From a virus: 64,000 nt of DNA. Made by a program: the position numbers and the translations under genes. Location of the stretch: the IMG/VR virus record IMGVR_UViG_3300021404_000006, positions 1 through 64,000 of that record, one strand, 5' to 3'. Of this stretch, positions 3,263 through 11,950 are shown piece by piece. Numbering within the stretch: position 1 is the stretch's first letter; each line of letters opens with the position of its first letter. The notes beneath the pieces were generated by a model that was given only the letters and a program-made list of their open reading frames with translations, was not told where the DNA came from and did not search any database.

Positions 3263-3772
3263 ATGAGCGTGACTACGAAGGCGGCTCGCCGTGCCGGCGG
3301 GTGCGTGTGCTCTCAGAACTGGAAGAAGCTCAAGGGTCTTGACTATACCGAGACCACCTGCAAGCCGGGCTACTGCTTCTCGGCTAAGTGCCTGACCTGC
3401 GGCGGCGAGGTCTTCGGCATGGGTCCGATGGCCTGCCCGTGCGAGGCTCCCCGGTGGTTCAGGCACCCGGACATGGCTAGGCGCGGGTACTTCGACCTGG
3501 ATAAGAACGAGTTCGTGGAGTCGCGTGGCGTGGCGGTCAAGCCGAACATCGCGAGGAGGAATCGTGGCAAGCGGTTATGCTGCGCCAGGCCCCAGCCCCA
3601 TGTGCCGCAAGTGCGGCCTGACCGATGGAGTACACACTCCAGGATGTCCTCTGGGAGAAGCCTCGAAAAACAGGTTGCGAGCACTCGGGGGCGTGGGGTA
3701 GGGTGGGGTCATGAGTTCAAGGACAGCCATCAGCCAGCGACCGTGCTACAAGCACGAGACGCCCGGTTTTGA
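3263..3772 (+). CDS. Cys-rich hypothetical protein (3' part doubtful)
   Basis: Starts immediately after upstream stop; CxC/CxxC motifs in first 100 aa; distal part overlaps another small ORF and a structured region. Confidence 0.5.
   Translation: MSVTTKAARRAGGCVCSQNWKKLKGLDYTETTCKPGYCFSAKCLTCGGEVFGMGPMACPCEAPRWFRHPDMARRGYFDLDKNEFVESRGVAVKPNIARRNRGKRLCCARPQPHVPQVRPDRWSTHSRMSSGRSLEKQVASTRGRGVGWGHEFKDSHQPATVLQARDARF
3564..3701 (+). CDS. Small 45-aa putative Zn-binding protein (not in ORF track)
   Basis: Strong RBS GAGGAGG before GTG; translates to MASGYAAPGPSPMCRKCGLTDGVHTPGCPLGEASKNRLRALGGVG. Confidence 0.5.
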   Translation: MASGYAAPGPSPMCRKCGLTDGVHTPGCPLGEASKNRLRALGGVG

Positions 3773-3899
3773 TGCCTGGAACCAGGTACTCGGGATGAGG
3801 CGAACCTAGCTCAGGAACTTTCTGAAACTAGGGCCTCGAACCGGGGAATAACCGGAGCGGGGCCTTCGTTATAGAGGGCGCAAGACACTAAAACTCCAT

Positions 3900-3976
3900 A
3901 TGGGAGCAGCTAACCCGGCCGGGCCGGGAGCGGATTCCAAACCCGCCAGCAATGCGTTCGACTCGTAGTTCCCGTG
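3900..3976 (+). tRNA. tRNA-Trp(CCA), atypical
   Basis: GCGGA-TTCCAAA-CCCGC anticodon arm, TTCGACT T-loop, 4-bp T stem. Confidence 0.7.
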
Positions 3977-4226
3977 CTTAGCTCCACTACCCGAAACCTG
4001 CGAGGGGACTAGGATGTGAACGAGCTTGTTGCGGCTCCGGCCGTGTGTCAACTCCATAGTGATGAGCATGAAGTACCTCGTAGTCAACGGGCCTCCACCC
4101 TGCGACTGCGACGGGGCCAGGACTCCACTCCTGGTCCCAATCTTTACAGCGAGATGCGGCGCGAACCCCCCGACCATCGCAGGGGCTAGACAGTACAGGA
4201 CTGCGGTAACGCCGAATCTCGCTCAC

Positions 4227-4299
4227 GGGGTAGTGGCACGACAGGTAAGGCACCTGCTTTGCAAGCAGCTACATGAGGGTTCGAATCCCTTCTACTCCA
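4227..4299 (+). tRNA. tRNA-Ala(TGC)
   Basis: GGGGTAG/CTACTCC-A acceptor with G3:U70, loop TTTGCAA. Confidence 0.88.
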
Positions 4300-4501
4300 C
4301 TGCTCCGAGGTAATTAGCGGCCACCTTAGACGTGGTGACAACGCGGTAGAAGGAGCTTCAAATTCCGCGAGAGTAGTCCTTTGCCGGACGAGGGTAGCGG
4401 GTAAAGCGGGTAAAGGGTTTCTGTGGGCTTTCCCTCCGCCTCGCCAAAGATACTGCCGGGGGTAGCTACCTGGTAAGTCTGGAATCGTGACAGCCTTACG
4501 A

Positions 4502-4573
4502 CGGGATTGAGGAAGACGGTAATCTGCTTCGTTCGGATCGAAGAGAAACTGGGTTCGACTCCCAGAGTCCCGA
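4502..4573 (+). tRNA. tRNA-Pro(CGG)
   Basis: CTTCG-TTCGGAT-CGAAG anticodon arm, GTTCGACT T-loop. Confidence 0.88.
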
Positions 4574-4576
4574 CAA

Positions 4577-4700
4577 GTGCTCAGTAAACGGTCGATAGGG
4601 ATCAGATGCGGGTTCAAGTCCCGTCACTTCCACGGTGTGCAAAGCCAATGGGGGTGTAGCTCAACGGCAGAGCGGTGAACGTAGACCGGGTAATGAGCGC
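4577..4700 (+). ncRNA. yrlA: Y RNA, YrlA-like (circularly permuted tRNA-like domain on a Ro60-binding stem)
   Basis: Terminal stems GTGCTCA/TGAGCGC and CGGTC(GA)/GACCG enclose T arm (GCGGG-TTCAAGT-CCCGT), acceptor stem CACTTCC/GGGGGTG closed by a loop, then D arm (TAGCTCAACGGCAGAGC). Confidence 0.8.
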
Positions 4701-4794
4701 CTAGCGAGAAGAGTCGCGAATCTTTGAGCGAACCGGAAGCGTACCTCCGAGGGACCTAGGCCGATCACCTGGGAGCGTCCCGAAAACGTGTCAT

Positions 4795-4866
4795 CGGGAG
4801 CGAGGAAGACGGTAATCTGCTTGCTCGGGATGCAAGAGAGACTGGGTTCAACTCCCAGGTTCCCGA
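4795..4866 (+). tRNA. tRNA-Pro(GGG)
   Basis: CTTGC-TCGGGAT-GCAAG anticodon arm. Confidence 0.88.
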
Positions 4867-4921
4867 CGCAGCCGCCAGCCTGGATACGAAATATGTGTGG
4901 CTAGAAAAAGTCCAGGAATAA

Positions 4922-4992
4922 CGGGATGTAGCGTAATGGTAGCGCGCCTGCTTTGGGAGCAGGTGGTTCAGGTTCGATTCCTGGTATTCCGA
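4922..4992 (+). tRNA. tRNA-Pro(TGG)
   Basis: CCTGC-TTTGGGA-GCAGG anticodon arm. Confidence 0.9.
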
Positions 4993-5061
4993 CGACGGGT
5001 GACCGCACTCAAGTGTCAGGGACGTGCGGCAGCAGGCGTGATGGGTGTAGGCGTCGCACAT

Positions 5062-5134
5062 GGGTCTGTAGCTCAATCGGTAGAGCGCTGGTCTGAAAAT
5101 CCAGAGGTCACAGGTTCGATTCCTGTCGTTCCCA
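5062..5134 (+). tRNA. tRNA-Phe(GAA)
   Basis: Loop CTGAAAA, canonical D and T arms. Confidence 0.88.
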
Positions 5135-5135
5135 C

Positions 5136-5206
5136 GGGGTAGTTAGTTAACGGCAAACTCCCACTCTTCCAAAGTGGTACTGCGGGTTCGAATCCCGTCT
5201 GCCCTT
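5136..5206 (+). tRNA. tRNA-Gly(TCC)
   Basis: CCACT-CTTCCAA-AGTGG. Confidence 0.88.
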
Positions 5207-5255
5207 CAAGGTCGGCCTCAATAAGCCATTTACGCGCCCAACCGGGCCGGCCCCT

Positions 5256-5328
5256 GTCACAATAGCTCCAGCGGTAGAGCGCCCCTTTCGTAATGGGGAG
5301 GACGTGGGTTCGAATCCCTCTTGTGGCT
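5256..5328 (+). tRNA. tRNA-Thr(CGT)
   Basis: Loop TTCGTAA, canonical cloverleaf. Confidence 0.88.
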
Positions 5329-5329
5329 C

Positions 5330-5403
5330 GCGTCTCTAGCTTAACGGTTCAAAGTAACTGGCTCTTACCCAGTGAGATCAGGGTTCGAATCCCTGGGGAC
5401 GTA
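5330..5403 (+). tRNA. tRNA-Lys(CTT)
   Basis: ACTGG-CTCTTAC-CCAGT. Confidence 0.88.
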
Positions 5404-5407
5404 CTGT

Positions 5408-5484
5408 GCTCGGGTAGGCAACTGGCAGACCACAGGGTTTCAAACTCCCTGATGCTGTGGGTTCAAATCCCATCCTGAGTACCA
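5408..5484 (+). tRNA. tRNA-Leu(CAA), short variable loop
   Basis: AGGGT-TTCAAAC-TCCCT, A73, encoded CCA. Confidence 0.8.
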
Positions 5485-5485
5485 T

Positions 5486-5558
5486 TTCCGTCTGGCCAAA
5501 TTGGCAAGGCACCTGGCTCTGAACCAGGAGATTCCAAGTTCGAATCTTGGGACGGAAG
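5486..5558 (+). tRNA. tRNA-Gln(CTG)
   Basis: CCTGG-CTCTGAA-CCAGG. Confidence 0.9.
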
Positions 5559-5627
5559 CGGGGAAATCGTACAGCTACGATGAGGAAATACCCGAATACG
5601 AGCTGAGTCCGGCGATTTCCCTACCAT

Positions 5628-5701
5628 GCTCCGCTAGGCAACTGGCAGACCACAGGGTCTCAGAAATCCTGATGCTCGGGGTTCGAATCCCCGGTGGAGT
5701 A
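5628..5701 (+). tRNA. tRNA-Leu(CAG), short variable loop
   Basis: AGGGT-CTCAGAA-ATCCT. Confidence 0.85.
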
Positions 5702-5803
5702 CGCGAGACGAGCCGGATGTAATCGGTTATCCTGGCCAAAAGAATTACAGGGGCGCTATTGCAGCGCTTAAAGCTCGGTTGCAATAAATATGTTCGTCTC
5801 CAT

Positions 5804-5876
5804 GCCTCCTTAGCTCATTCGGAAGAGCAGCTGTCTTGTAAACAGCAGGTGATCGGTTCGAATCCGATAGGTGGCT
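5804..5876 (+). tRNA. tRNA-Thr(TGT)
   Basis: GCTGT-CTTGTAA-ACAGC. Confidence 0.9.
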
Positions 5877-5956
5877 CTGGGCTTGTTAAGAAATCCGCAA
5901 CACGGTCGTTAGTCGGCCGCCTACGGGCGCGGCTCTTACACTGGCAGGCTCTTCAT

Positions 5957-6029
5957 GTCACAATAGCTCCAGCGGTAGAGCGGTTGCATGGTAAGCAACA
6001 GGTCTCGGGTTCGAATCCCGATTGTGGCT
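5957..6029 (+). tRNA. tRNA-Thr(GGT)
   Basis: GTTGC-ATGGTAA-GCAAC. Confidence 0.9.
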
Positions 6030-6113
6030 CTAGCTCAGACACCGTTCGACGCGCCCCGGCTGCAAGCGGACGTACTGTCGAATTACCTTGCAGGGGTCGT
6101 CTGAGCTTTAATT

Positions 6114-6218
6114 GTTTCCGGTCGAGGCAATAGGCAGACCCTAGAGGAGCAGCTTAGCTGCAACAAGCCGTCATAAGGCTGAGATAGTGTGCCGGTTCGA
6201 AACCGGCCCGGAAACCCA
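6114..6218 (+). tRNA. Atypical tRNA(CAT) with extra arm 5' of the anticodon arm
   Basis: GTTTCCGG/CCGGAAAC acceptor + CCA, AGCC-GTCATAA-GGCT anticodon arm, GCCGG-TTCGAAA-CCGGC T arm, inserted GCAGC-TTA-GCTGC hairpin. Confidence 0.6.
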
Positions 6219-6219
6219 T

Positions 6220-6293
6220 GTGGTAGTAGCTCCAATTGGTAGAGCATCGGCTTGCCAAGTCGAATGTTGCGAGTTCGAATCTCGTCTGCCGCA
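6220..6293 (+). tRNA. tRNA-Gly(GCC)
   Basis: TCGGC-TTGCCAA-GTCGA. Confidence 0.9.
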
Positions 6294-6347
6294 CTTACCC
6301 GCACAGGTACCTCGTATGGAAGGTGGGATTAAAAACCCTGTGACCCT

Positions 6348-6430
6348 GCGCACATGATGGAATGGTAGACGTGCTGTCTTGAGGAGGCAGTGTCCGGAAG
6401 GGCGTGCCGGTTCGAATCCGGCTGTGTGCA
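6348..6430 (+). tRNA. tRNA-Leu(GAG)
   Basis: CTGTC-TTGAGGA-GGCAG, long variable arm. Confidence 0.9.
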
Positions 6431-6504
6431 CTAGCTAGCGGAAGGAAGTACGCCTTCGCCGGGGAAGGTCCGGCACGAGAGAAGAATCGTCCGCTAGCTT
6501 TAAT

Positions 6505-6589
6505 GGAAGGCTCGCATAGCGGTCTAGTGCGCTGCCCTGCTAAGGCAGTTGGGGTCAAACTCACGCGGGTTCGAATCCCGCGCCTTCCT
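6505..6589 (+). tRNA. tRNA-Ser(GCT)
   Basis: CTGCC-CTGCTAA-GGCAG, long variable arm. Confidence 0.9.
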
Positions 6590-6665
6590 CGGTAGGTGGT
6601 TTCAGGTGAATCGTTCCTGATGAAATGCTCTCCGGTTATTAGGATATGAGCTGCCACCCCTTAAC

Positions 6666-6750
6666 GGATGATTCGCATAGTGGTCTAGTGCGCCAGCTTG
6701 GAAAGTTGGTATGGGTCAAACCATCGCGAGTTCGAATCTCGCATCATCCT
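6666..6750 (+). tRNA. tRNA-Ser(GGA)
   Basis: CCAGC-TTGGAAA-GTTGG, long variable arm. Confidence 0.9.
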
Positions 6751-6751
6751 C

Positions 6752-6836
6752 GGAAGATGATCCCTGCCGGTAATGGGGGCCGCCTCGAAAGCGGATCGTG
6801 GCTAATCACCATGGCGTTCAATTCGTCCTTCTTCCT
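6752..6836 (+). tRNA. tRNA-Ser(CGA), possible 8/4 fold
   Basis: CCGC-CTCGAAA-GCGG; GGCG-TTCAATT-CGTC 4-bp T stem. Confidence 0.75.
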
Positions 6837-6904
6837 CTTGGGCGCAGGCTGGCACTGTGGGTAACTCCTGGGAAATACGGGCTCGTACCAGGACCCATTT
6901 ACGA

Positions 6905-6977
6905 GCCGATTGCAGAGCTGGTTGCTCGGAGAACTCTGATAAGGTTCTTGCGCTGAGTTCAATTCTCAGAGTCGGTA
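6905..6977 (+). tRNA. tRNA-Ile(GAT)
   Basis: GAACT-CTGATAA-GGTTC. Confidence 0.85.
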
Positions 6978-6978
6978 C

Positions 6979-7052
6979 GGGAGCAGGTCCGAACGGTATG
7001 ACGGAATCTGGCTTATATCCAGCTTGACTAGGTTCAATTCCTAGTGCTCCTA
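6979..7052 (+). tRNA. tRNA-Ile(TAT)
   Basis: CTGG-CTTATAT-CCAG, GGGAGCA/TGCTCCT acceptor. Confidence 0.8.
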
Positions 7053-7053
7053 C

Positions 7054-7127
7054 TGTGGCGTAGCTCATTGGCTAGAGCGCCGGCTTCATAAACCGGGAGG
7101 TAGAGGGTTCGAATCCCTTCGTCACTA
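7054..7127 (+). tRNA. tRNA-Met(CAT), initiator-like 1:72 mismatch
   Basis: Loop TTCATAA; T1:T72 mismatch. Confidence 0.85.
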
Positions 7128-7128
7128 C

Positions 7129-7200
7129 GGGTCTTTCGTTCAATGCGCAGGACAGCGGGCTTTTACCCCGTATATCTGGGTTCGAATCCCAGAGGACCCA
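7129..7200 (+). tRNA. tRNA-Lys(TTT)
   Basis: GCGGG-CTTTTAC-CCCGT. Confidence 0.88.
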
Positions 7201-7294
7201 CGGCAAGTGTGAGCAATCAGATTACTTGTACTCCCTCTCGCTTTTTGTGCAGCCCGGTAAACGGGTGGAGGACGGATGGCCTGGTTGCAAAAAT

Positions 7295-7368
7295 GCTCCG
7301 TTGGTCTAGCGGTCAGGACACCTGGTTCTCAGCCAGCGAGATCATCGGTTCGAATCCGATACGGAGCA
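7295..7368 (+). tRNA. tRNA-Glu(CTC)
   Basis: CTGG-TTCTCAG-CCAG. Confidence 0.88.
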
Positions 7369-7388
7369 CGCTACAATAAAAAGCACAA

Positions 7389-7462
7389 CGTCCATTAGGC
7401 AAGCGGTTCAAGCCACCTGTCCTTCAAACAGGGGATCATCGGTTCGAATCCGATATGGACGA
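7389..7462 (+). tRNA. tRNA-Glu(TTC)
   Basis: CCTGT-CCTTCAA-ACAGG. Confidence 0.85.
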
Positions 7463-7463
7463 C

Positions 7464-7539
7464 TGCGGGGTGACTGGAGTTCGGACCCAGCCCGGCCTCA
7501 TAAGCCGCATAAACGTCGGTTCAAATCCGACCCCCGCTT
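7464..7539 (+). tRNA. tRNA-Met(CAT), fMet-like
   Basis: GCGGGG/CCCCGC acceptor with 1:72 mismatch, CGGC-CTCATAA-GCCG. Confidence 0.82.
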
Positions 7540-7576
7540 CTCGTCCAATCCGTAAAGACGTAAAATTTCCGGGCAT

Positions 7577-7649
7577 TGGCCCTTAGCTTAATCGGCAAAG
7601 CACTGGACTGTTAATCCGGGGGATATTGGTTCGAATCCAATAAGGTCAG
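7577..7649 (+). tRNA. tRNA-Asn(GTT)
   Basis: CTGGA-CTGTTAA-TCCGG. Confidence 0.9.
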
Positions 7650-7691
7650 CAAGCGCTTTCAAACCCCGGCGCTTTATAAGAACGGGGCTAT

Positions 7692-7766
7692 GGGATCATA
7701 GCAAAATCGGAATAATGCACCACCCTGTCAAGGTGGAGGGTACGGGTTCGAATCCCGTTGGTCTCG
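7692..7766 (+). tRNA. tRNA-Asp(GTC)
   Basis: CCACC-CTGTCAA-GGTGG. Confidence 0.9.
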
Positions 7767-7864
7767 CGTAGTGCCTTCGTTGTCCTTCTGCTCCTGGGGT
7801 GAGAGCCGTATATTTCTACGCTGTTTCAATGTTCTGATTTTTCCAAGCAGGAAGTTTCTGATAC

Positions 7865-9355
7865 ATGGCAAGGCACAGCAGAACGCTGGCAAAGCACGGC
7901 CGGAAAAGGCCTAAAAGGACTTGGCGCAATTCAAACTTCAAGGTGTATTCTCTGGTAGCAGCCGGCGCTATCGTACTGGCGTGTGCTGCGGCAGCTCCTG
8001 GCGTACTGCACGGGAATACCTCGAATCTCGTAGCCACCCAGTTCGCAAACAGCAACGCGCGGGTACAGGCTACTGCTCCTCCCTCTAGCCCCACTGCCGG
8101 CAGCAACAGCGACGCGGCACTTCCCAGCCAGATGACAGGCAGCGAGCAGATACAGCTCGGCAATCTCCTGACGGCACCGCAGTGTACGCTGAACGTGCCC
8201 TCTGATCCGCTGTCATCAGGCCTGTCCCAGCCGTGGTTCCTGGAAAGTGCTACCGCTGCCTGTGCGGAAAACGCTCAGACTGGCGCATTCGTCCAGGCGA
8301 CAATCCTCGATCCGGCCACAGGTGCCCTCAGCGTTTACTACCCGCTGGTAGTACCAGAAGGTGCAACTCCAGCCAGGACCATCGTGCCGCCGGTTCTGCC
8401 GCCTAACGCGGTTGTCACCATCTGGACAGGGTTCAACGGCAGTCAGCTCAAGCTAGCCGGACCTGGTGCGGCGTACTTCGTTAACTTCGCCCAGCAGTCG
8501 TGGGCCAACAGCCCGCAGTTCTTCCAGGCACTGCGTACGGCAATCGGCCAGGGGCTGGTTACCGTTCCTCCTAACGGTACCGCTAAGGACGGTCTCCCCT
8601 GTCCTACCACCCGGGACTTCTCGATCGTGGACCAGGATCAGTCGGACAACGTGCCCTCTTCAGAGCTGGTTGCAGGGCTCGGTGCGACAGCTCAGGCTAA
8701 TGCGGCGAACATCGCTGCGCTGCCGGGTGCTACCCAGCTGTTCAACGGCTCCGATGAAGGGGTCCTGGAATCCGTAGACAGTGCCCTAGGCTGTAAGCAG
8801 TGGATGGTACCCGACCAGACTGACAACAACGTCCTGGCCCCCTCTGCTGCGCTGAACGAGCAGCAGGCCGCATCCTTCCAGGGCATTCCGATGGCCTTGG
8901 TACCTGGCTTGAACGACTTCGTGACCAGCAATGGCACGGCTCCCCCTGCGGGCAAGGAAAACCTGTTCTTGCAGAACCTGTACCGCTTGCAGGTAGGCCA
9001 GCCGCCCACAGGCAACGGCAACGACACCAGAGAGTACTGCGTCAATCTTGCACTGACCGGGGCACCACGGCTGCAACTGGACTTCGATACCGAGTCGTCT
9101 GCACCCACCCCCGCGTTCCTTGCCGGAACCGGCGTCAACCTCGCTCTCGCGCTCGCGCACCGTTTCACGGGCACCTGGGCTAACTTGAACTGTACGGGCC
9201 TTACCGGGCAGCCAAGTCCGGTTACGGTGACCCTATCCGGCAACACTGCTATCGCGGCTACTTTCACGCCGTACCGGGGGCCGCTGTTCGGCCTCTCGTA
9301 CTCCGGGTACCCGTCAGGCAGTTCGTCCTCAGGCAGTACGCATTTCGGATCGTGA
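7865..9355 (+). CDS. Secreted/membrane-anchored protein of unknown function inserted in tRNA array
   Basis: 496-aa ORF; basic N-terminus plus hydrophobic helix; paired Cys; CTLNVPSDPLS and CPTTRDFSIVDQDQSDNV blocks. Confidence 0.8.
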   Translation: MARHSRTLAKHGRKRPKRTWRNSNFKVYSLVAAGAIVLACAAAAPGVLHGNTSNLVATQFANSNARVQATAPPSSPTAGSNSDAALPSQMTGSEQIQLGNLLTAPQCTLNVPSDPLSSGLSQPWFLESATAACAENAQTGAFVQATILDPATGALSVYYPLVVPEGATPARTIVPPVLPPNAVVTIWTGFNGSQLKLAGPGAAYFVNFAQQSWANSPQFFQALRTAIGQGLVTVPPNGTAKDGLPCPTTRDFSIVDQDQSDNVPSSELVAGLGATAQANAANIAALPGATQLFNGSDEGVLESVDSALGCKQWMVPDQTDNNVLAPSAALNEQQAASFQGIPMALVPGLNDFVTSNGTAPPAGKENLFLQNLYRLQVGQPPTGNGNDTREYCVNLALTGAPRLQLDFDTESSAPTPAFLAGTGVNLALALAHRFTGTWANLNCTGLTGQPSPVTVTLSGNTAIAATFTPYRGPLFGLSYSGYPSGSSSSGSTHFGS

Positions 9356-9361
9356 CAGACT

Positions 9362-9405
9362 CTGCTGTATGCCATTCGGGCATTTCCGCCGGGTGGCATA
9401 CAGCA
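9362..9405 (+). terminator. Strong hairpin after secreted-protein gene (terminator or processing site)
   Basis: CTGCTGTATGCCA...TGGCATACAGCAG inverted repeat; no U-tract. Confidence 0.55.
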
Positions 9406-9413
9406 GGAAACAT

Positions 9414-9487
9414 GCAGCGTTAGCACAATGGACTAATGCACCTGACTACGAATCAGGAGAATAGGGGTTCGAGTCCCTTACGCTGTA
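9414..9487 (+). tRNA. tRNA-Arg(ACG)
   Basis: CCTGA-CTACGAA-TCAGG. Confidence 0.9.
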
Positions 9488-9546
9488 CTAGGTCCGTGGG
9501 TACCTTTTGTGAGTCTCTTCGGAGGCCTAGATAAAACCCACATCAA

Positions 9547-9618
9547 GCCTCTTTAGCTCAATGGTAGAGTAACGGTCCTACAAACCGAGGACTTAGGGTT
9601 CGATTCCCTTGAGAGGTA
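9547..9618 (+). tRNA. tRNA-Val(TAC)
   Basis: CGGT-CCTACAA-ACCG. Confidence 0.85.
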
Positions 9619-9620
9619 CC

Positions 9621-9693
9621 GGGTCGTAACTCAAACGGTTGCGAGACTTGGCTGTGACCCAAGTGTGAGCGGGTTCGACTCCCGCACGACCCT
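9621..9693 (+). tRNA. tRNA-His(GTG)
   Basis: CTTGG-CTGTGAC-CCAAG. Confidence 0.82.
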
Positions 9694-9793
9694 CAAGGAA
9701 TGACACTGCTATTCCCTAACCGCAGGACTAGGGCCTCGGGCATGCAGTGCGCTGGAGAGCGCCTAGTGGGAGAAAAATAAGTACTCACATCAA

Positions 9794-9871
9794 GCCTGTT
9801 ACGCTCCAAGGTGGACACGGCGGCTGTAAACCGCTTGCTTCGGCAGGGGAGTTCGATTCTCTCAACAGGTA
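9794..9871 (+). tRNA. tRNA-Tyr(GTA)
   Basis: GGCGG-CTGTAAA-CCGCT, variable arm TGC-TTCG-GCA. Confidence 0.85.
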
Positions 9872-9959
9872 CGGCTCCAGTGCACCGCTATCCGGCCGGT
9901 AGCTAGTTTCCCGTGAGGGATTGCGTTCTGTTAGGGAACGGGTGCACTGGAACTGGCTT

Positions 9960-10031
9960 ACATCTGCTAGCGGACCTAGTTCTTTCCCTCCGAAGGAAGG
10001 ACACCGAGTTCGACTCTCGGCAGGTGTACCA
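9960..10031 (+). tRNA. tRNA-Arg(CCG)
   Basis: TTTCC-CTCCGAA-GGAAG, encoded CCA. Confidence 0.82.
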
Positions 10032-10105
10032 CGGAGGTTGGCCGAGAGGCGAGGCGCTAGGCTGCAACCCTAGTTACGCGGGTTCAAATCCCGCATCTCC
10101 GTCCA
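10032..10105 (+). tRNA. tRNA-Cys(GCA)
   Basis: CTAGG-CTGCAAC-CCTAG, U73, CCA. Confidence 0.9.
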
Positions 10106-10106
10106 T

Positions 10107-10178
10107 AGTCCTGACAGCGGACCTGTACCTGCGTCCCCTAAATGCGGCGTCCGAGTTCGACTCTCGGTAGGACTACCA
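10107..10178 (+). tRNA. tRNA-Arg(CCT)
   Basis: TGCGT-CCCCTAA-ATGCG, encoded CCA. Confidence 0.82.
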
Positions 10179-10198
10179 GTGCTCATCACTATGAACTA

Positions 10199-10278
10199 GG
10201 GGCCGGGTTGGTATCGACGTAGGGAAAGCCGCATGCGGCACCCGCCACGGATCTAGGGTTCGAATCCCTACGGCTCCA
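10199..10278 (+). ncRNA. Minimal tmRNA-like RNA (tRNA-like domain only, no tag reading frame)
   Basis: GGGGCCG/CGGCTCC-A acceptor with G3:U70; stemless D-loop GGTTGGTATCGAC resembling tmRNA GG-x-TTCGAC; GGA before T arm TAGGG-TTCGAAT-CCCTA; no anticodon loop. Confidence 0.7.
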
Positions 10279-10279
10279 C

Positions 10280-11950
10280 TTAACCGATCGATTTCAGGAT
10301 GTCGTAGTCGTGGCGTTTCTTGTTCAGTCCCCACGCTGCCAGGTTGCAGCTCACCGCCGGCGTGATGTCCGTGGTTGAGTCCCTGCGGCACCAGGTCTTG
10401 CCTCCGTCGCCCATAAGACGCGTTTCAGCCGTTCCCACGGCATGCCAGAGGGTGTACCCGGTCTTCTCTCCCAGGTGCCTTAGCGGCCGGTTCTCGTCCT
10501 TGCACTGCTGCACGAACCAGGCGTAAGCCGCCGCGTCGTCGCTAGCCGTGGACCTGATGAGCCTGGACCCGAACTTATGATGCTTCGGCCACAGCTTCTC
10601 AAGGTCATCTCCGAGGCCTGCGGCCGGCCCTGTGCGCGGCGCTACGATCGCCAGGGGCCTGTACTTCTGTACCAGCTCCGCCAGCCGGTCTACAACCCAG
10701 TTAGTGCCAGGGCGGGCACAGTTCCTCGGGATCTCCATCACCAGGAAGCCTTCAGGATGCACCCAGGAAACCGCGATCGAGGCGCTGGTACCGTCCTCGG
10801 CAACATCCAGCGCGAAGGCTGTCTGGCCGCCAGCAGGGATGATTCCTGGCTTCTTCACCGTCAGGCTGCGAAACAGGTCTTCGGAAACTACCTTCCAGGC
10901 TTCCTCTTCCGCCGGCCACTGGCCGACGCCCAGCCGCTCGCGGTCGTACTCGACATCGGAAAGCGTCGCCAGCTCGTTCTTCGTGAATTCCCAGGACAGG
11001 CGGTAGCCGAACCCAGGATTGGCCTTAGCCGCGCTCTCAGGGGTGTCGCGGTCGTCGTGCTCATCGCAGACGATGTAATGGTTGGTCTTCCGTCCGTTGG
11101 TACGGTCTACCTTGCACGTCGGCAGGTGCGGCTGTATCGACCATTCAGCGCCGAACAGGTCTTTAGTGTCGTGCGTGATGCGCCTGCGGGACCGGGCCAG
11201 CTGCTCGGAGTCTTCCAGGCCTGCGGAGCCGGCCAGCCACATCTGCGAGTTGGGCACGGCGGACATGGTAGGCAGCGAGGCACCGACTGATTCGGCCGCG
11301 AGGATCATGGCTTCGTCGTAGATCAGGCAGTTACAGGTGAAGCCTCGGGCGGAGCCACGCGACCTCGCCAGGAAGCGAAGTCGCGGGCTTACGCTCTCGA
11401 AGACGCGCTTACGGCCGGAGCCGAAGATAAGGGTGGGCCTGGCAAGGAGCTGAATCTGCTCTTCACCGTGAGAAAACCGTGGCTTGCCTTTCATGCGCCG
11501 CGACAGAGCCGGGTAGTTCTCAATGGTCTGGATGACGCGGAGGAAATGCTCCTGGGCAGTCTTCAGCTCGTGGGCCGTGTGAATAATAAGCTTCTCGCCC
11601 AGCAGGTACATGCCCGCCAGCTCGCGGATTTCCAGGATCGTGCCCTTGCCGTTCTGCCTGGAAACAATTACGTCATTCTCGAAGCTAGCCCACCGGCCGT
11701 CAGGACGCGTACCGCAGGCTTCCCTGATCACCCATTCCTGCCACGGGTCCGGTTTGTAGCCGAAGCCTTTAGCCCAGTCAAGAATTTCAGTGGAAAGGTA
11801 ATCGCCGCATCCTATTCCGCTGTAGCCGTCTTCAGTTATACCACAGCTAGGGCAGGTGCTTACTTCTTCCCTGTGCCTGTCGGGCGCAGTCCAGAACCGG
11901 GGCATTTGCTGCCCGTAAACCTCTGGTTCTTCAAGTACGGCACTTACCAT
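10280..11950 (-). CDS. terL: Terminase large subunit
   Basis: PDPWQ Q-motif, Walker A SRQNGKG, Walker B LIYDEA, ANPG, ERLG, RNase H-like FALDV. Confidence 0.93.
   Translation of the reverse strand: MVSAVLEEPEVYGQQMPRFWTAPDRHREEVSTCPSCGITEDGYSGIGCGDYLSTEILDWAKGFGYKPDPWQEWVIREACGTRPDGRWASFENDVIVSRQNGKGTILEIRELAGMYLLGEKLIIHTAHELKTAQEHFLRVIQTIENYPALSRRMKGKPRFSHGEEQIQLLARPTLIFGSGRKRVFESVSPRLRFLARSRGSARGFTCNCLIYDEAMILAAESVGASLPTMSAVPNSQMWLAGSAGLEDSEQLARSRRRITHDTKDLFGAEWSIQPHLPTCKVDRTNGRKTNHYIVCDEHDDRDTPESAAKANPGFGYRLSWEFTKNELATLSDVEYDRERLGVGQWPAEEEAWKVVSEDLFRSLTVKKPGIIPAGGQTAFALDVAEDGTSASIAVSWVHPEGFLVMEIPRNCARPGTNWVVDRLAELVQKYRPLAIVAPRTGPAAGLGDDLEKLWPKHHKFGSRLIRSTASDDAAAYAWFVQQCKDENRPLRHLGEKTGYTLWHAVGTAETRLMGDGGKTWCRRDSTTDITPAVSCNLAAWGLNKKRHDYDILKSIG

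What the first reader, a model, noticed from the sequence alone, without database searches (positions are those of the whole stretch)
3705..9951. tRNA array doubles as a carrier for about ten self-contained structured non-tRNA RNAs
Seen: most of the longer spacers (about 45-100 nt) between tRNAs are closed by their own terminal helix, which often begins and ends within a few nt of the flanking tRNAs. Examples: AGCGAGAT/ATCTCGCT (4148-4223), GGGAAATCG/CGATTTCCC (5561-5621), GAGACGAGC/GTTCGTCTC (5705-5800), GGGCTTGTT/GGCAGGCTC (5879-5951), AGCTCAGAC/GTCTGAGCT (6032-6107), AGCTAGCGGA/TCCGCTAGCT (6433-6499), GGTGGT/GCCACC (6595-6658), TCCAGTGCACC/GGTGCACTGGA (9876-9951). They hold multiway junctions, lack U-tracts and differ in sequence from each other. 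Inference: tRNA processing would release a library of stable small RNAs, possibly decoys or aptamers against host defence or RNA-binding proteins, much as the Y RNA and mini-tmRNA appear to be.
Basis: partly seen in the sequence, partly recalled or inferred. Interest (0 to 1): 0.8.

Follow-up and report, generated by a model that had tools for sequence, protein, structure and literature searches.

The report
Small folded RNAs inside phage tRNA operon
Between the tRNA genes of this uncultured soil phage sit about a dozen small RNA modules, each clamped shut by its own helix; one is a partner RNA for the phage's own Ro60 protein, and several others are better conserved than the tRNAs around them.

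Summary
All 8 named helices lie exactly where stated. Six of 19 spacers carry an end-to-end helix of at least 9 bp, against 0.10 expected from shuffles.

- **E3 (5705-5800) is a Y RNA.** It shares a covarying two-helix handle with four tandem units upstream of the phage's Ro60 gene. The same handle precedes Ro60 in Mycobacterium and other Actinomycetota genomes.
- **Five other modules have relatives.** These are E4, E5, E6, E7 and 6302-6342. Differences inside their helices are compensatory; no pair is lost in the two-sequence comparisons.
- **E4 and E6 look mobile.** They are 87-91% identical to copies in a phage whose tRNAs are only about 65% identical, and there they sit at different junctions.
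- **E1, E2 and E8 have no known relatives.**

Not shown: release by tRNA-processing enzymes, any decoy or aptamer role, or expression. Metatranscriptome contigs only show presence. No Rfam family matches.

Earlier notes of this scan describe similar RNA-carrying tRNA arrays in other phages. I rate this a new variant of a known kind.

The parts
3900..10279 (+). tRNA array that carries the modules. It holds 27 ARAGORN tRNAs plus non-standard ones.
   Evidence: The tRNA order is conserved in relatives. No + strand terminator or sigma-70-type promoter was found by a simple scan.
4148..4223 (+). E1: a module closed by an 8-bp helix, lying 3 nt before tRNA-Ala. No relatives found.
   Evidence: z -2.79; 8 of 8 pairs in the context MFE; no homologue.
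4577..4703 (+). YrlA-like Y RNA candidate with a permuted tRNA-like domain. It was the subject of another finding and is listed here for context.
   Evidence: Rfam RF02553 scores 35.7 bits, below the gathering score of 69. Its spacer family is shared with L007, L008 and L010.
5210..5252 (+). Hairpin-closed spacer (9-bp helix) between Gly-tcc and Thr-cgt.
   Evidence: p 0.001. Homologues occur in L010/L012 and in G002 at 85%. The same junction holds closed spacers in G002 and G003, each with a 12-bp helix.
5560..5622 (+). E2: a module closed by an 11-bp helix (9 Watson-Crick and 2 G-U pairs). Its interior is also structured. No relatives found.
   Evidence: (z -4.33; interior -3.26).
5705..5800 (+). 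E3: a Y RNA paralogue. It has a terminal stem plus a second stem of the Ro60-linked handle, and lacks a tRNA-like domain.
   Evidence: 94.5% paired; 8 of 17 pairs changed on both sides; 0 of 500 shuffles reach the observed values; 75.3 bits.
5879..5951 (+). E4: a module closed by a 10-bp helix with 4 G-U pairs, so it pairs only on the transcribed strand. A copy lies at another junction in G003.
   Evidence: z -1.97 on + and +0.15 on -; 87% over 68 nt; 23 pairs: 2 changed on both sides, 3 on one side, none unpaired.
6032..6107 (+). E5: a conserved closed module, followed by a tRNA-like element at 6108-6219.
   Evidence: homologue in L011; 28 pairs: 4 changed on both sides, none unpaired.
6302..6342 (+). 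Closed spacer between Gly-gcc and Leu-gag, among the best conserved stretches of the array.
   Evidence: 90-96% identity to L007, L011, L019. One search shows the closing helix as CACAGG, CTCAGG or CACGGG, each with a matching 3' arm. One search finds it only in these relatives.
6433..6499 (+). E6: a cloverleaf-shaped module closed by a 10-bp helix. A copy lies at another junction in G003.
   Evidence: 91% over 53 nt; 21 pairs: 4 changed on both sides, none unpaired; 92.7 bits; 98.8 bits in G003 and in L296.
6595..6658 (+). E7: a three-way-junction module that always lies just upstream of tRNA-Ser(gga).
   Evidence: 5 phages; 6 of 19 pairs changed on both sides; no further member in 167 loci.
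9362..9406 (+). A 13-bp hairpin between the inserted ORF (7865-9355) and tRNA-Arg(acg).
   Evidence: Read from the sequence. Rfam gives only a weak miRNA-model hit there. Not followed up.
9876..9951 (+). E8: a cloverleaf-shaped module closed by an 11-bp perfect helix. It is absent at this junction in relatives and has no homologue.
   Evidence: z -4.43; pair probability 1.00; relatives have 3 nt here.

Best explanation
The array is one long RNA operon. The junctions between its conserved tRNA genes act as slots for small, self-clamped RNA modules.

Each module is closed by its own helix of 6-13 bp. The helix begins 0-4 nt after the upstream tRNA. It ends 3-7 nt before the next tRNA, and the intervening bases finish in a CAT-type leader. 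The host enzymes that cut tRNA ends should therefore free each module as a small RNA with paired ends. That means RNase P at the 5' end of the next tRNA, and RNase Z or an exonuclease at the 3' end of the previous one. This release step is inferred, not shown.

The set is mixed:
- E3 is a Y RNA that most likely binds the phage's own Ro60. The YrlA-like element at 4577-4703 is probably a second Y RNA.
- E4, E5, E6, E7 and 6302-6342 are structured RNAs kept by selection or moved between phages as units. Their partners are unknown. By analogy with the Y RNA, I think they are most likely protein-binding small RNAs.
- E1, E2 and E8 are lineage-specific modules of the same design.

The closing helix does two jobs. 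It lets an insert fold on itself without disturbing the neighbouring pre-tRNAs, and it shields the freed RNA's ends from exonucleases.
For: **Closing helices are real and non-random.** They are also in excess in the relatives. They are commoner on the transcribed strand: 15 versus 9 of 67 spacers have at least 8 bp. E4 has 4 G-U pairs.

**E3 is a Y RNA.**
- The handle alignment of 10 units is 94.5% paired. Eight of 17 pairs are changed on both sides, and 0 of 500 shuffles reach the observed values. With the 3' partners slid, only 28-45% of cells pair.
- The four paralogues lie directly upstream of a TROVE plus vWA_Ro60 gene.
- The model built from these units finds 2-3 tandem units upstream of Ro60 homologues in 4 Actinomycetota loci. 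It finds nothing above 16.1 bits in the other 14 loci tested.

**Helix differences in conserved modules are compensatory.**

| Module | Pairs | Changed on both sides | Cells not paired |
|---|---|---|---|
| E5 | 28 | 4 | 0 |
| E6 | 21 | 4 | 0 |
| E4 | 23 | 2 (plus 3 on one side) | 0 |
| E7, 5 phages | 19 | 6 | some, in the misaligned rows |

The closing helix of 6302-6342 changes on both sides at 2 positions among 4 phages.

**Modules are conserved above the tRNAs and move between junctions.**
- E4 and E6 are 87% and 91% identical to G003 copies at other junctions. The 28 shared tRNAs are only 53-88% identical, median 65%.
- Four further families sit at different junctions in different phages. 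They are 67-93% identical, against tRNA medians of 68-72%.

**Spacer ends fit tRNA-end processing.** Before tRNAs, position -3 is C in 83, -2 is A in 90 and -1 is T in 79 of 125 spacers. The first spacer base is C in 1 of 125.

**The array is present in RNA libraries.** Contigs from three soil metatranscriptomes, with no differing letters, bridge tRNA-spacer-tRNA stretches.
Against: - No cut site, RNA end or abundance has been measured. Contigs of RNA libraries can contain DNA, and I had no control stretch.
- Arrays of relatives work with junctions of 0-5 nt (L028, G003). So the modules are not needed for tRNA supply.
- E1, E2 and E8 have no homologue in about 12 related arrays, in 50,697 GenBank phage records (E2 and E8 tested), or in IMG/VR for one E8 pattern.
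- Module interiors other than E2 do not fold better than shuffles.
- Most covariation rests on 2-5 sequences.
- High identity to G003 could reflect recent transfer rather than selection for function.
- No module other than E3 matches the Y-RNA handle model at E up to 10. No Rfam family matches at E up to 10.
Confidence: 0.55

Rival explanations
1. Passive insulators. The inserts are functionless in trans. Only the closing helix is selected, because a long unstructured stretch in an untranslated operon would disturb folding of neighbouring pre-tRNAs, or invite Rho termination or endonuclease attack. Any insert that survives is therefore self-clamped.
For: - The closing helix is the only feature that beats shuffles in most modules.
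- One junction holds unrelated clamped inserts in different relatives. At Leu-gag to Ser-gct, the window has E6, L009 has a 66-nt element with a 12-bp helix, and L019 has a different element.
- Three modules are lineage-specific.
- Compact arrays exist.
Against: - It does not explain why the interiors of E4, E6 and 6302-6342 are far better conserved than the tRNAs, with loop sequences unchanged.
- It does not explain why inner helices covary.
- At least one module is a Y RNA with a likely protein partner.
Confidence: 0.2
2. Selfish mobile cassettes or mutational by-products. These would be short DNA segments with inverted ends that insert at tRNA junctions. Alternatively they are hairpins made by template switching during replication, which spread between phages without benefit to them.
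For: - Distribution is patchy. E4 and E6 are shared with the distant G003 but absent from closer relatives, and lie at other junctions there.
- Six families in all are found at different junctions.
- The three modules without relatives have all-Watson-Crick arms of 8, 9 and 11 bp.
- A 1.6-kb ORF-bearing insert occupies a junction that is 0 nt in relatives.
Against: - Each module is single-copy in the genome, and modules do not resemble each other.
- Reading the flanks, I saw no target-site duplication.
- No transposase or integrase lies among the window ORFs that I scanned next to the array.
- G-U-rich helices such as E4 pair only on the transcribed strand.
- Compensatory changes show the helices are maintained after insertion.
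Confidence: 0.12
3. Decayed tRNAs. The modules are former tRNA genes that kept the acceptor stem as the closing helix while the arms drifted.
For: - Module sizes of 63-96 nt are tRNA-like.
- E6 and E8 fold as cloverleaves.
- Relatives carry non-standard tRNAs with odd T-loops, which ARAGORN misses, in spacers of 73-76 nt.
- The offsets from neighbouring tRNAs resemble those of an abutting tRNA.
Against: - There is no tRNA model hit at E up to 10.
- There is no similarity to 281 tRNAs of the clade beyond shuffled controls for E1, E2, E4, E6, E7 and E8.
- Reading the folds, I saw no anticodon-type loop.
- Closing helices are 8-11 bp, not 7.
- At the same junctions the distant relatives have 0-5 nt, not a tRNA.
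Confidence: 0.05

Closest known systems
Bacterial and phage Y RNAs (YrlA/YrlB) with Ro60/Rsr. Chen et al. 2014, PMC4201824 (abstract and passages read). Thermus phage phiLo Ro60 with Yrl1/Yrl2, PMC12135203 (passages read).
   Same: E3 has a terminal stem plus a second conserved, irregular stem. It shares these with tandem units just upstream of Ro60 in this phage, in another phage (L048) and in Mycobacterium/Actinomycetota genomes. Like YrlB-type RNAs, it lacks the full tRNA-like domain.
   Different: - E3 lies about 65 kb from the Ro60 gene, on the other strand, inside the tRNA array.
- Its 5' motif reads GCCGGA rather than the published GNCGAA.
- Rfam YrlA does not match it.
- Ro60 binding is untested.
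Phage T4 small RNAs RNAC and RNAD (species 1 and 2). PMC9697503 calls them RNAs of yet unknown function (passage read). That they lie in the T4 tRNA gene cluster is recalled, not from a call.
   Same: Stable non-tRNA RNAs encoded with phage tRNAs, with no known function.
   Different: Here there are about a dozen modules, each clamped by its own helix. They are variable between relatives, and one is identified as a Y RNA. There is no sequence or Rfam relation.
tRNA-spacer-derived regulators such as the E. coli 3' external transcribed spacer of leuZ, an sRNA sponge. Search listing only; details recalled.
   Same: By-products of tRNA operon processing that act in trans.
   Different: Those act by base pairing with Hfq-dependent sRNAs and are not closed by terminal helices. 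No target complementarity was tested here.
Murine gammaherpesvirus 68 tRNA-miRNA-encoded RNAs (TMERs). Search listing only; the release of hairpins by tRNase Z is recalled.
   Same: A virus links structured small RNAs to tRNA-like units, so that host tRNA-processing enzymes release them.
   Different: It is a eukaryotic virus transcribed by Pol III, and its cargo is pre-miRNA hairpins. There is no homology.
Earlier notes of this scan on other phages (e1-5712908, e1-6154531, e1-5582326, e1-221247). These are AI notes and I did not check them.
   Same: tRNA arrays carrying stem-clamped or Y-RNA-like modules.
   Different: Several of those describe one shared handle with variable cargo. Here only the Y-RNA family shares a handle; the other clamps are all different.

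Membership tests
Y RNA (bacterial/phage YrlA-YrlB type), tested for E3 5705-5800 | A stem joining the 5' and 3' ends, plus a conserved, irregular second helix that forms the Ro60-binding module. | tested here: met
   17 pairs in 2 helices over 10 units are 94.5% paired. Eight pairs are changed on both sides, 0 of 500 shuffles reach the observed values, and slid controls pair at 28-45%. One unit (Ro-proximal unit 3) needs a 1-nt bulge.
Y RNA (bacterial/phage YrlA-YrlB type), tested for E3 5705-5800 | Encoded near Ro60 on the same strand, the criterion used by Chen et al. 2014 (PMC4201824, passage). | tested here: not met
   E3 is at 5.7 kb on the + strand, while Ro60 is at 69.5-71.1 kb on the - strand. 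Its four paralogues meet the criterion. So do the matching units in L048, L173, L201 and L248.
Y RNA (bacterial/phage YrlA-YrlB type), tested for E3 5705-5800 | The 5' motif GNCGAAN0-1G (PMC4201824), or CGAA (PMC12135203). | tested here: inconclusive
   All 10 units read GAGCCGGA at this place, which is one base off GNCGAA. The same variant precedes Ro60 in Actinomycetota genomes.
Y RNA (bacterial/phage YrlA-YrlB type), tested for E3 5705-5800 | A match to Rfam RF02553 (YrlA) at its gathering score. | tested here: not met
   There is no YrlA match to E3 at E up to 10. The Ro-proximal units reach only 22.8 bits, and 4577-4703 reaches 35.7 bits, against a gathering score of 69. That model includes the tRNA-like domain, which E3 lacks.
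Y RNA (bacterial/phage YrlA-YrlB type), tested for E3 5705-5800 | Binds Ro60. | not testable with these tools
   This needs RNA immunoprecipitation or a gel-shift assay.
tRNA or tRNA pseudogene (E1, E2, E4-E8) | A match to tRNA models, or residual similarity to tRNAs of the clade. | tested here: not met
   ARAGORN finds none even at relaxed settings. RF00005 gives no hit at E up to 10 in 5555-6670, or up to 5 in 3400-10400. The best local alignment to 281 tRNAs stays within shuffled controls, except for a marginal E5 (27 against a shuffled maximum of 26).
Any described RNA family (Rfam 15, 4227 models, including ribozymes and riboswitches) | A covariance-model match. | tested here: not met
   Searches give no match inside any of the eight named modules.
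Intrinsic terminators | A G+C-rich hairpin followed by a U-tract. | tested here: not met
   No + strand site was found in 3300-10500. No run of four T follows within 12 nt of any of the 8 helices.
Miniature inverted-repeat mobile elements | Multi-copy families with shared terminal inverted repeats and target-site duplications. | tested here: not met
   Each module is single-copy in the 118,922-bp genome. There are no window-to-window families. I saw no duplication at the flanks when reading, but I ran no systematic test for one.

The most novel reading that the evidence does not exclude
The junctions of phage tRNA arrays form a cassette-exchange system for small RNAs. Self-clamped modules hop between junctions and between distantly related phages, and they are better conserved than the tRNAs around them. 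Together they make up an accessory 'RNA island' whose members are set free by the host's universal tRNA-end enzymes. They act on host or phage proteins, for example in takeover or counter-defence, much as the Y RNA acts with Ro60.
Probability: 0.25. Interest if true: 0.8.

Novelty: new variant of a known kind. Interest (0 to 1): 0.6.

Why it matters
Phage tRNA clusters are usually read as codon-supply or anti-defence tRNA sets, and their spacers are ignored.

Here the spacers hold a Y RNA that is separated from its Ro60 gene. They also hold several structured RNAs more conserved than the tRNAs themselves, which appear to move between junctions and between phages.

If these RNAs are released and bind partners, tRNA arrays are general delivery operons for phage small RNAs. 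That would give a simple rule for finding new phage non-coding RNAs: look for a helix-clamped insert between tRNAs. The idea can be tested directly by small-RNA sequencing and Ro60 pull-down.

Tried and rejected
1. **Relatives through the inserted ORF 7865-9355.** Nineteen pattern hits were found, but none encodes a relative.

2. **GenBank phages.** Megablast found 5 records and distant blastn 284; every listed row was a tRNA match. Single-module queries for E2, E4 and E8 found nothing at E up to 1. E6 gave one 25-nt chance hit inside a coding gene.

3. **A loose E7 pattern in IMG/VR.** That scan was largely wasted.

4. **The Y-handle pattern in genome contigs.** My own arithmetic expects about 87 chance hits for 18 fixed bases. 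I tested only part of them:
   - 92 of 120 by tblastn with the phage Ro60; 3 had Ro60.
   - 18 of 120 with model R2; 4 loci gave 9 strong hits. L247 scored 16.1 bits, L169 15.3 bits, and 12 loci gave nothing.
   - The Agrobacterium/Rhizobium matches did not fit the model, so I take them as chance or as another sequence.

5. **Origin from tRNAs.** Rejected on sequence grounds.

6. **Ro60 as a means of clearing structured spacers.** There is no support. G001 is a complete genome with Ro60 and six Y units but no tRNA array.

7. **My own earlier reading.** Up to I held that E1, E2, E4, E6 and E8 were all orphans and that only the clamp mattered. It fell when a wider BLAST found E4 and E6 in G003. 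Those copies lie outside the flanks fetched at first. Absence of relatives for E1, E2 and E8 may therefore also be a sampling gap.

8. **'ACCA' after the clamp.** Seen in E2, in one L009 spacer and in the G003 copy of E6. It overlaps the general CAT leader, so I do not claim an encoded CCA end.

9. **Interior z-scores.** They do not discriminate. Conserved modules with covariation (E4, E5, E6) score no better than shuffles.

10. **RNA libraries.**
    - Contig depth was uneven. In X1, the contig over 4100-4728 had depth 33 against 4-13 elsewhere. A cross-mapping contig from the Ro60-proximal Y unit had depth 53-63 in X2 and X3. This hints at real RNA.
    - The tool warns that contig depth cannot rank parts of a sequence, and I had no call left for a silent control stretch.
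    - Parts without cover mean nothing.
    - Runs X4 and X5 held small shares (0.15 and 0.06).

11. **Models R1 and R3.** They found no further E7 or E6 members in the loci searched. The single E8 pattern found nothing.

12. **Papers.** I found none on structured non-tRNA modules in actinophage tRNA arrays with the searches. That covers only the held library. The supplementary tables of PMC4201824 were closed.

Full report
**Setting.** The window is the first 64 kb of a complete 118,922-bp virus record with direct terminal repeats.
- ARAGORN finds 27 tRNAs on the + strand between 4227 and 10105. Rfam and relaxed ARAGORN settings add non-standard ones: Pro-ggg 4795-4867, Ser-cga 6752-6837, Ile-tat 6979-7053, Met 7464-7540, Tyr 9794-9872 and an Arg-like element near 9955-10028.
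- The array ends next to the large terminase gene, 10280-11950 on the - strand.
- A simple scan finds no sigma-70-type promoter and no + strand terminator inside it.
- GenBank phages share only tRNA-sized matches with it.

**The observation.**
- All eight quoted arm pairs are at the stated coordinates. They have 5-11 Watson-Crick pairs plus 0-4 G-U pairs, and none is followed by a T-run.
- I tested for a contiguous helix whose arms start within 6 nt of the two spacer ends. Six of 19 spacers reach at least 9 bp. Shuffles give 0.10 on average and never more than 2 in 2000. Same-length pieces of the rest of the window reach 9 bp in 0.5% of draws.
- Of the 14 spacers of 45-101 nt, 8 are closed if two 6-bp helices set slightly further in are counted.
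- Whole modules fold better than dinucleotide shuffles, with z from -1.9 to -4.4.
- The closing helix survives when the module is folded with both neighbouring tRNAs. It is in the minimum-energy structure in 9 of 10 cases, with mean pair probability 0.39-1.00.
- With the clamp removed, only the E2 interior beats shuffles. The 'multiway junctions' are therefore not supported by thermodynamics alone. The later comparative data show this test is too weak to count against them.

**Relatives.**
- The terminase brought in 24 IMG/VR loci and 15 metagenome loci, many of them duplicates. About a dozen carry the array.
- The tRNA order is conserved, but the junctions are not. One junction may hold 0-5 nt in one phage and unrelated inserts of 45-250 nt in others. 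L028 and G003 are largely compact.
- Closing helices are also in excess in the relatives. Ten of 55 spacers without a T-loop-like motif have at least 8 bp, against 0.75 expected.
- They are commoner on the transcribed strand, 15 versus 9 of 67.
- Some closed spacers of 73-76 nt in relatives are simply non-standard tRNAs that ARAGORN misses.

**E3 is a Y RNA.**
- The 5' part of 5705-5800 matches a place at 71.4 kb of the same genome. Four tandem units there lie directly upstream of a gene with TROVE (5.6e-40) and Ro60-vWA (2.2e-65) domains.
- All five copies share GAGCCGGA, a few variable bases, then ATCGGTTATC at the 5' side. At the 3' side they share CCGGT, variable bases, then G(T/C)TC.
- An IMG/VR scan with the core motif found the syntenic copies in three relatives. 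It also found a different complete phage (L048), where tandem units again precede a Ro60-like ORF.
- On an alignment of 10 units, the terminal stem and the second stem are 94.5% paired. Eight of 17 pairs are changed on both sides in 22 cells, and no shuffle reaches these values. Sliding the partners drops pairing to 28-45%.
- A model built from these units finds only E3 in the window (75.3 bits).
- In bacterial genomes the model finds 2-3 tandem units (44-57 bits) upstream of Ro60 homologues that are about 46% identical to the phage protein. These lie in one Actinomycetota and three Mycobacterium assemblies. It finds nothing convincing in the 14 other loci tested.
- Chen et al. showed that M. 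smegmatis Rsr binds YrlA and YrlB, which are encoded upstream of it (PMC4201824, passages). I did not check that those two RNAs carry this exact handle.
- E3 fails two formal criteria. It is not near Ro60, and it does not match Rfam YrlA. Its 5' motif is one base off the published GNCGAA.

**Other modules with relatives.**
- **E7 (6595-6658)** occurs in five phages, always just upstream of tRNA-Ser(gga). Six of 19 predicted pairs are changed on both sides, and the junction sequences are conserved.
- **E5 (6032-6107)** has one homologue, in L011. Of 28 pairs, 4 are changed on both sides, 2 on one side, one pair is inserted and none is lost.
- **6302-6342** is 90-96% identical in three relatives. 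Its closing helix changes on both sides at two positions.
- **E4 and E6** at first looked like orphans. A BLAST against everything fetched then found them in G003, a phage whose terminase is 49% identical.
  - E4 is 87% identical over 68 nt. In G003 it sits between Thr-cgt and Lys-ctt; here it sits between Thr-tgt and Thr-ggt.
  - E6 is 91% identical over 53 nt. In G003 it sits between Asn and Asp; here between Leu-gag and Ser-gct.
  - In E6, 4 of 21 pairs are changed on both sides. In E4, 2 of 23 are changed on both sides and 3 on one side. No aligned cell is unpaired; in each alignment one pair is present in only one of the two sequences.
  - The 28 tRNAs the two phages share are only 53-88% identical, median 65%.
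  - Both modules also occur in a second G003-like contig. They are absent from the closer relatives.
- Four further spacer families sit at different junctions in different phages. They are 67-93% identical, against tRNA medians of 68-72%.

So modules behave as units that are retained or exchanged independently of the tRNAs.

**Modules without relatives.** E1, E2 and E8 have no homologue in:
- the related arrays;
- the rest of the genome and all loci held;
- G002 and G003;
- GenBank phages, tested for E2 and E8;
- IMG/VR, for one E8 pattern.

Given what happened with E4 and E6, this may be a sampling gap.

**What they are not.**
- No Rfam family matches at E up to 10.
- They show no similarity to 281 tRNAs of the clade.
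- They are not terminators.
- They are not a multi-copy repeat family.

**Processing and expression.**
- Spacers end in a strong CAT-type leader: C at -3 in 83, A at -2 in 90 and T at -1 in 79 of 125. They almost never begin with C (1 of 125).
- From general knowledge, which I recall and did not test here, U at -1 favours bacterial RNase P, and a CCA-like start blocks RNase Z. That fits cutting at both tRNA borders. Such cuts would free each module with a 0-4 nt 5' overhang and a 3' tail of 3-7 nt.
- Three soil metatranscriptome runs hold 54-80% of the sampled words. Their contigs, with no differing letters, bridge tRNA-module-tRNA stretches such as 5151-5916 and 6385-7413.
- Contigs cannot show ends or levels, and DNA carry-over is not excluded. 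I count this as presence only.

**Reading.**
- The best account is a mixed set of genuine small RNAs carried in the tRNA operon. One has an identified partner (Ro60). Five are conserved or exchanged as structured units. Three are unplaced.
- The clamp serves both clean folding of the precursor and protection of the released RNA.
- The pure-insulator reading explains the clamp and the turnover, but not interiors conserved far above the tRNAs.
- The selfish-cassette reading explains the patchy distribution and the changes of junction, but not strand-specific G-U pairing or single-copy status.
- The decayed-tRNA reading has no positive evidence.
- A role as decoys against host defence remains possible but has no evidence here.

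**Comparison and novelty.**
- Non-tRNA stable RNAs beside phage tRNAs are known from T4 (RNAC and RNAD, function unknown; PMC9697503 passage, with the cluster location recalled).
- Phage Y RNAs next to Ro60 are known (PMC4201824, PMC12135203).
- The new points are three: a Y RNA placed inside the tRNA array far from Ro60; the general clamp-plus-leader design; and modules that change junction and phage while staying more conserved than the tRNAs.
- Earlier notes of this scan describe related cases in other phages. I did not check them.
- I class the finding as a new variant of a known kind, with moderate to high interest.

Noticed in passing
window 7865-9355 (+), with hairpin 9362-9406: A 496-aa ORF with no Pfam or PHROG match lies between tRNA-Asp and tRNA-Arg(acg), a junction that is 0 nt in relatives. 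It has no relative in IMG/VR by the patterns tried. A 13-bp hairpin follows it.
   Followed up: partly
window 4301-4501: The 200-nt spacer between tRNA-Ala and tRNA-Pro(cgg) is conserved in four phages, with cores 85-93% identical. It has no closing helix, a folding z of +1.57 and no Rfam match. It may be another non-coding RNA or a small coding region.
   Followed up: no
window 6108-6219: A tRNA-like element with a 7-bp acceptor-type stem, a canonical T arm and a 7-nt loop reading CAT in the anticodon position. It carries about 40 extra nt of hairpins, and ARAGORN misses it.
   Followed up: no
L009, L027 and L028 (reverse-complement coordinates given): Relatives carry cloverleaf tRNAs with normal anticodon loops (Thr-tgt, Thr-cgt, CAT) but unusual T-loops containing GGCAC. 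ARAGORN does not call them.
   Followed up: no
L007, L009, L010 and L019 spacers: A recurring element of about 73 nt, not present in the window. It has a hairpin with loop GTTGCAA, followed by a 9-bp stem that encloses a canonical T arm. It sits at three different junctions in different phages.
   Followed up: partly
125 spacers of the window and relatives: There is a strong CAT-type leader just before tRNA 5' ends, and C is almost absent as the first base after a tRNA.
   Followed up: partly
window 7370-7388, 7541-7576, 7651-7691: Short A+T-rich spacers contain -10-like hexamers (TACAAT, TAAAAT, TATAAG) about 7-12 nt before the next tRNA. Two are 86-95% conserved, and in other phages they occur at other junctions. 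They may be internal promoters.
   Followed up: no
L048 2855-3566 (-), genome G001: A complete 127-kb phage without a tRNA array carries six tandem Y-handle units upstream of a Ro60-like ORF.
   Followed up: partly
L173, L201, L238, L248: The phage's Y-RNA handle and a Ro60 that is 46% identical occur together in Mycobacterium and other Actinomycetota assemblies. This hints that the host is an actinobacterium.
   Followed up: partly
window 4100-4900, and the Ro60-proximal Y unit 3: In the RNA libraries, contigs over the promoter-proximal part of the array are several times deeper than the rest of the array. So is a contig that cross-maps from Y unit 3.
   Followed up: no
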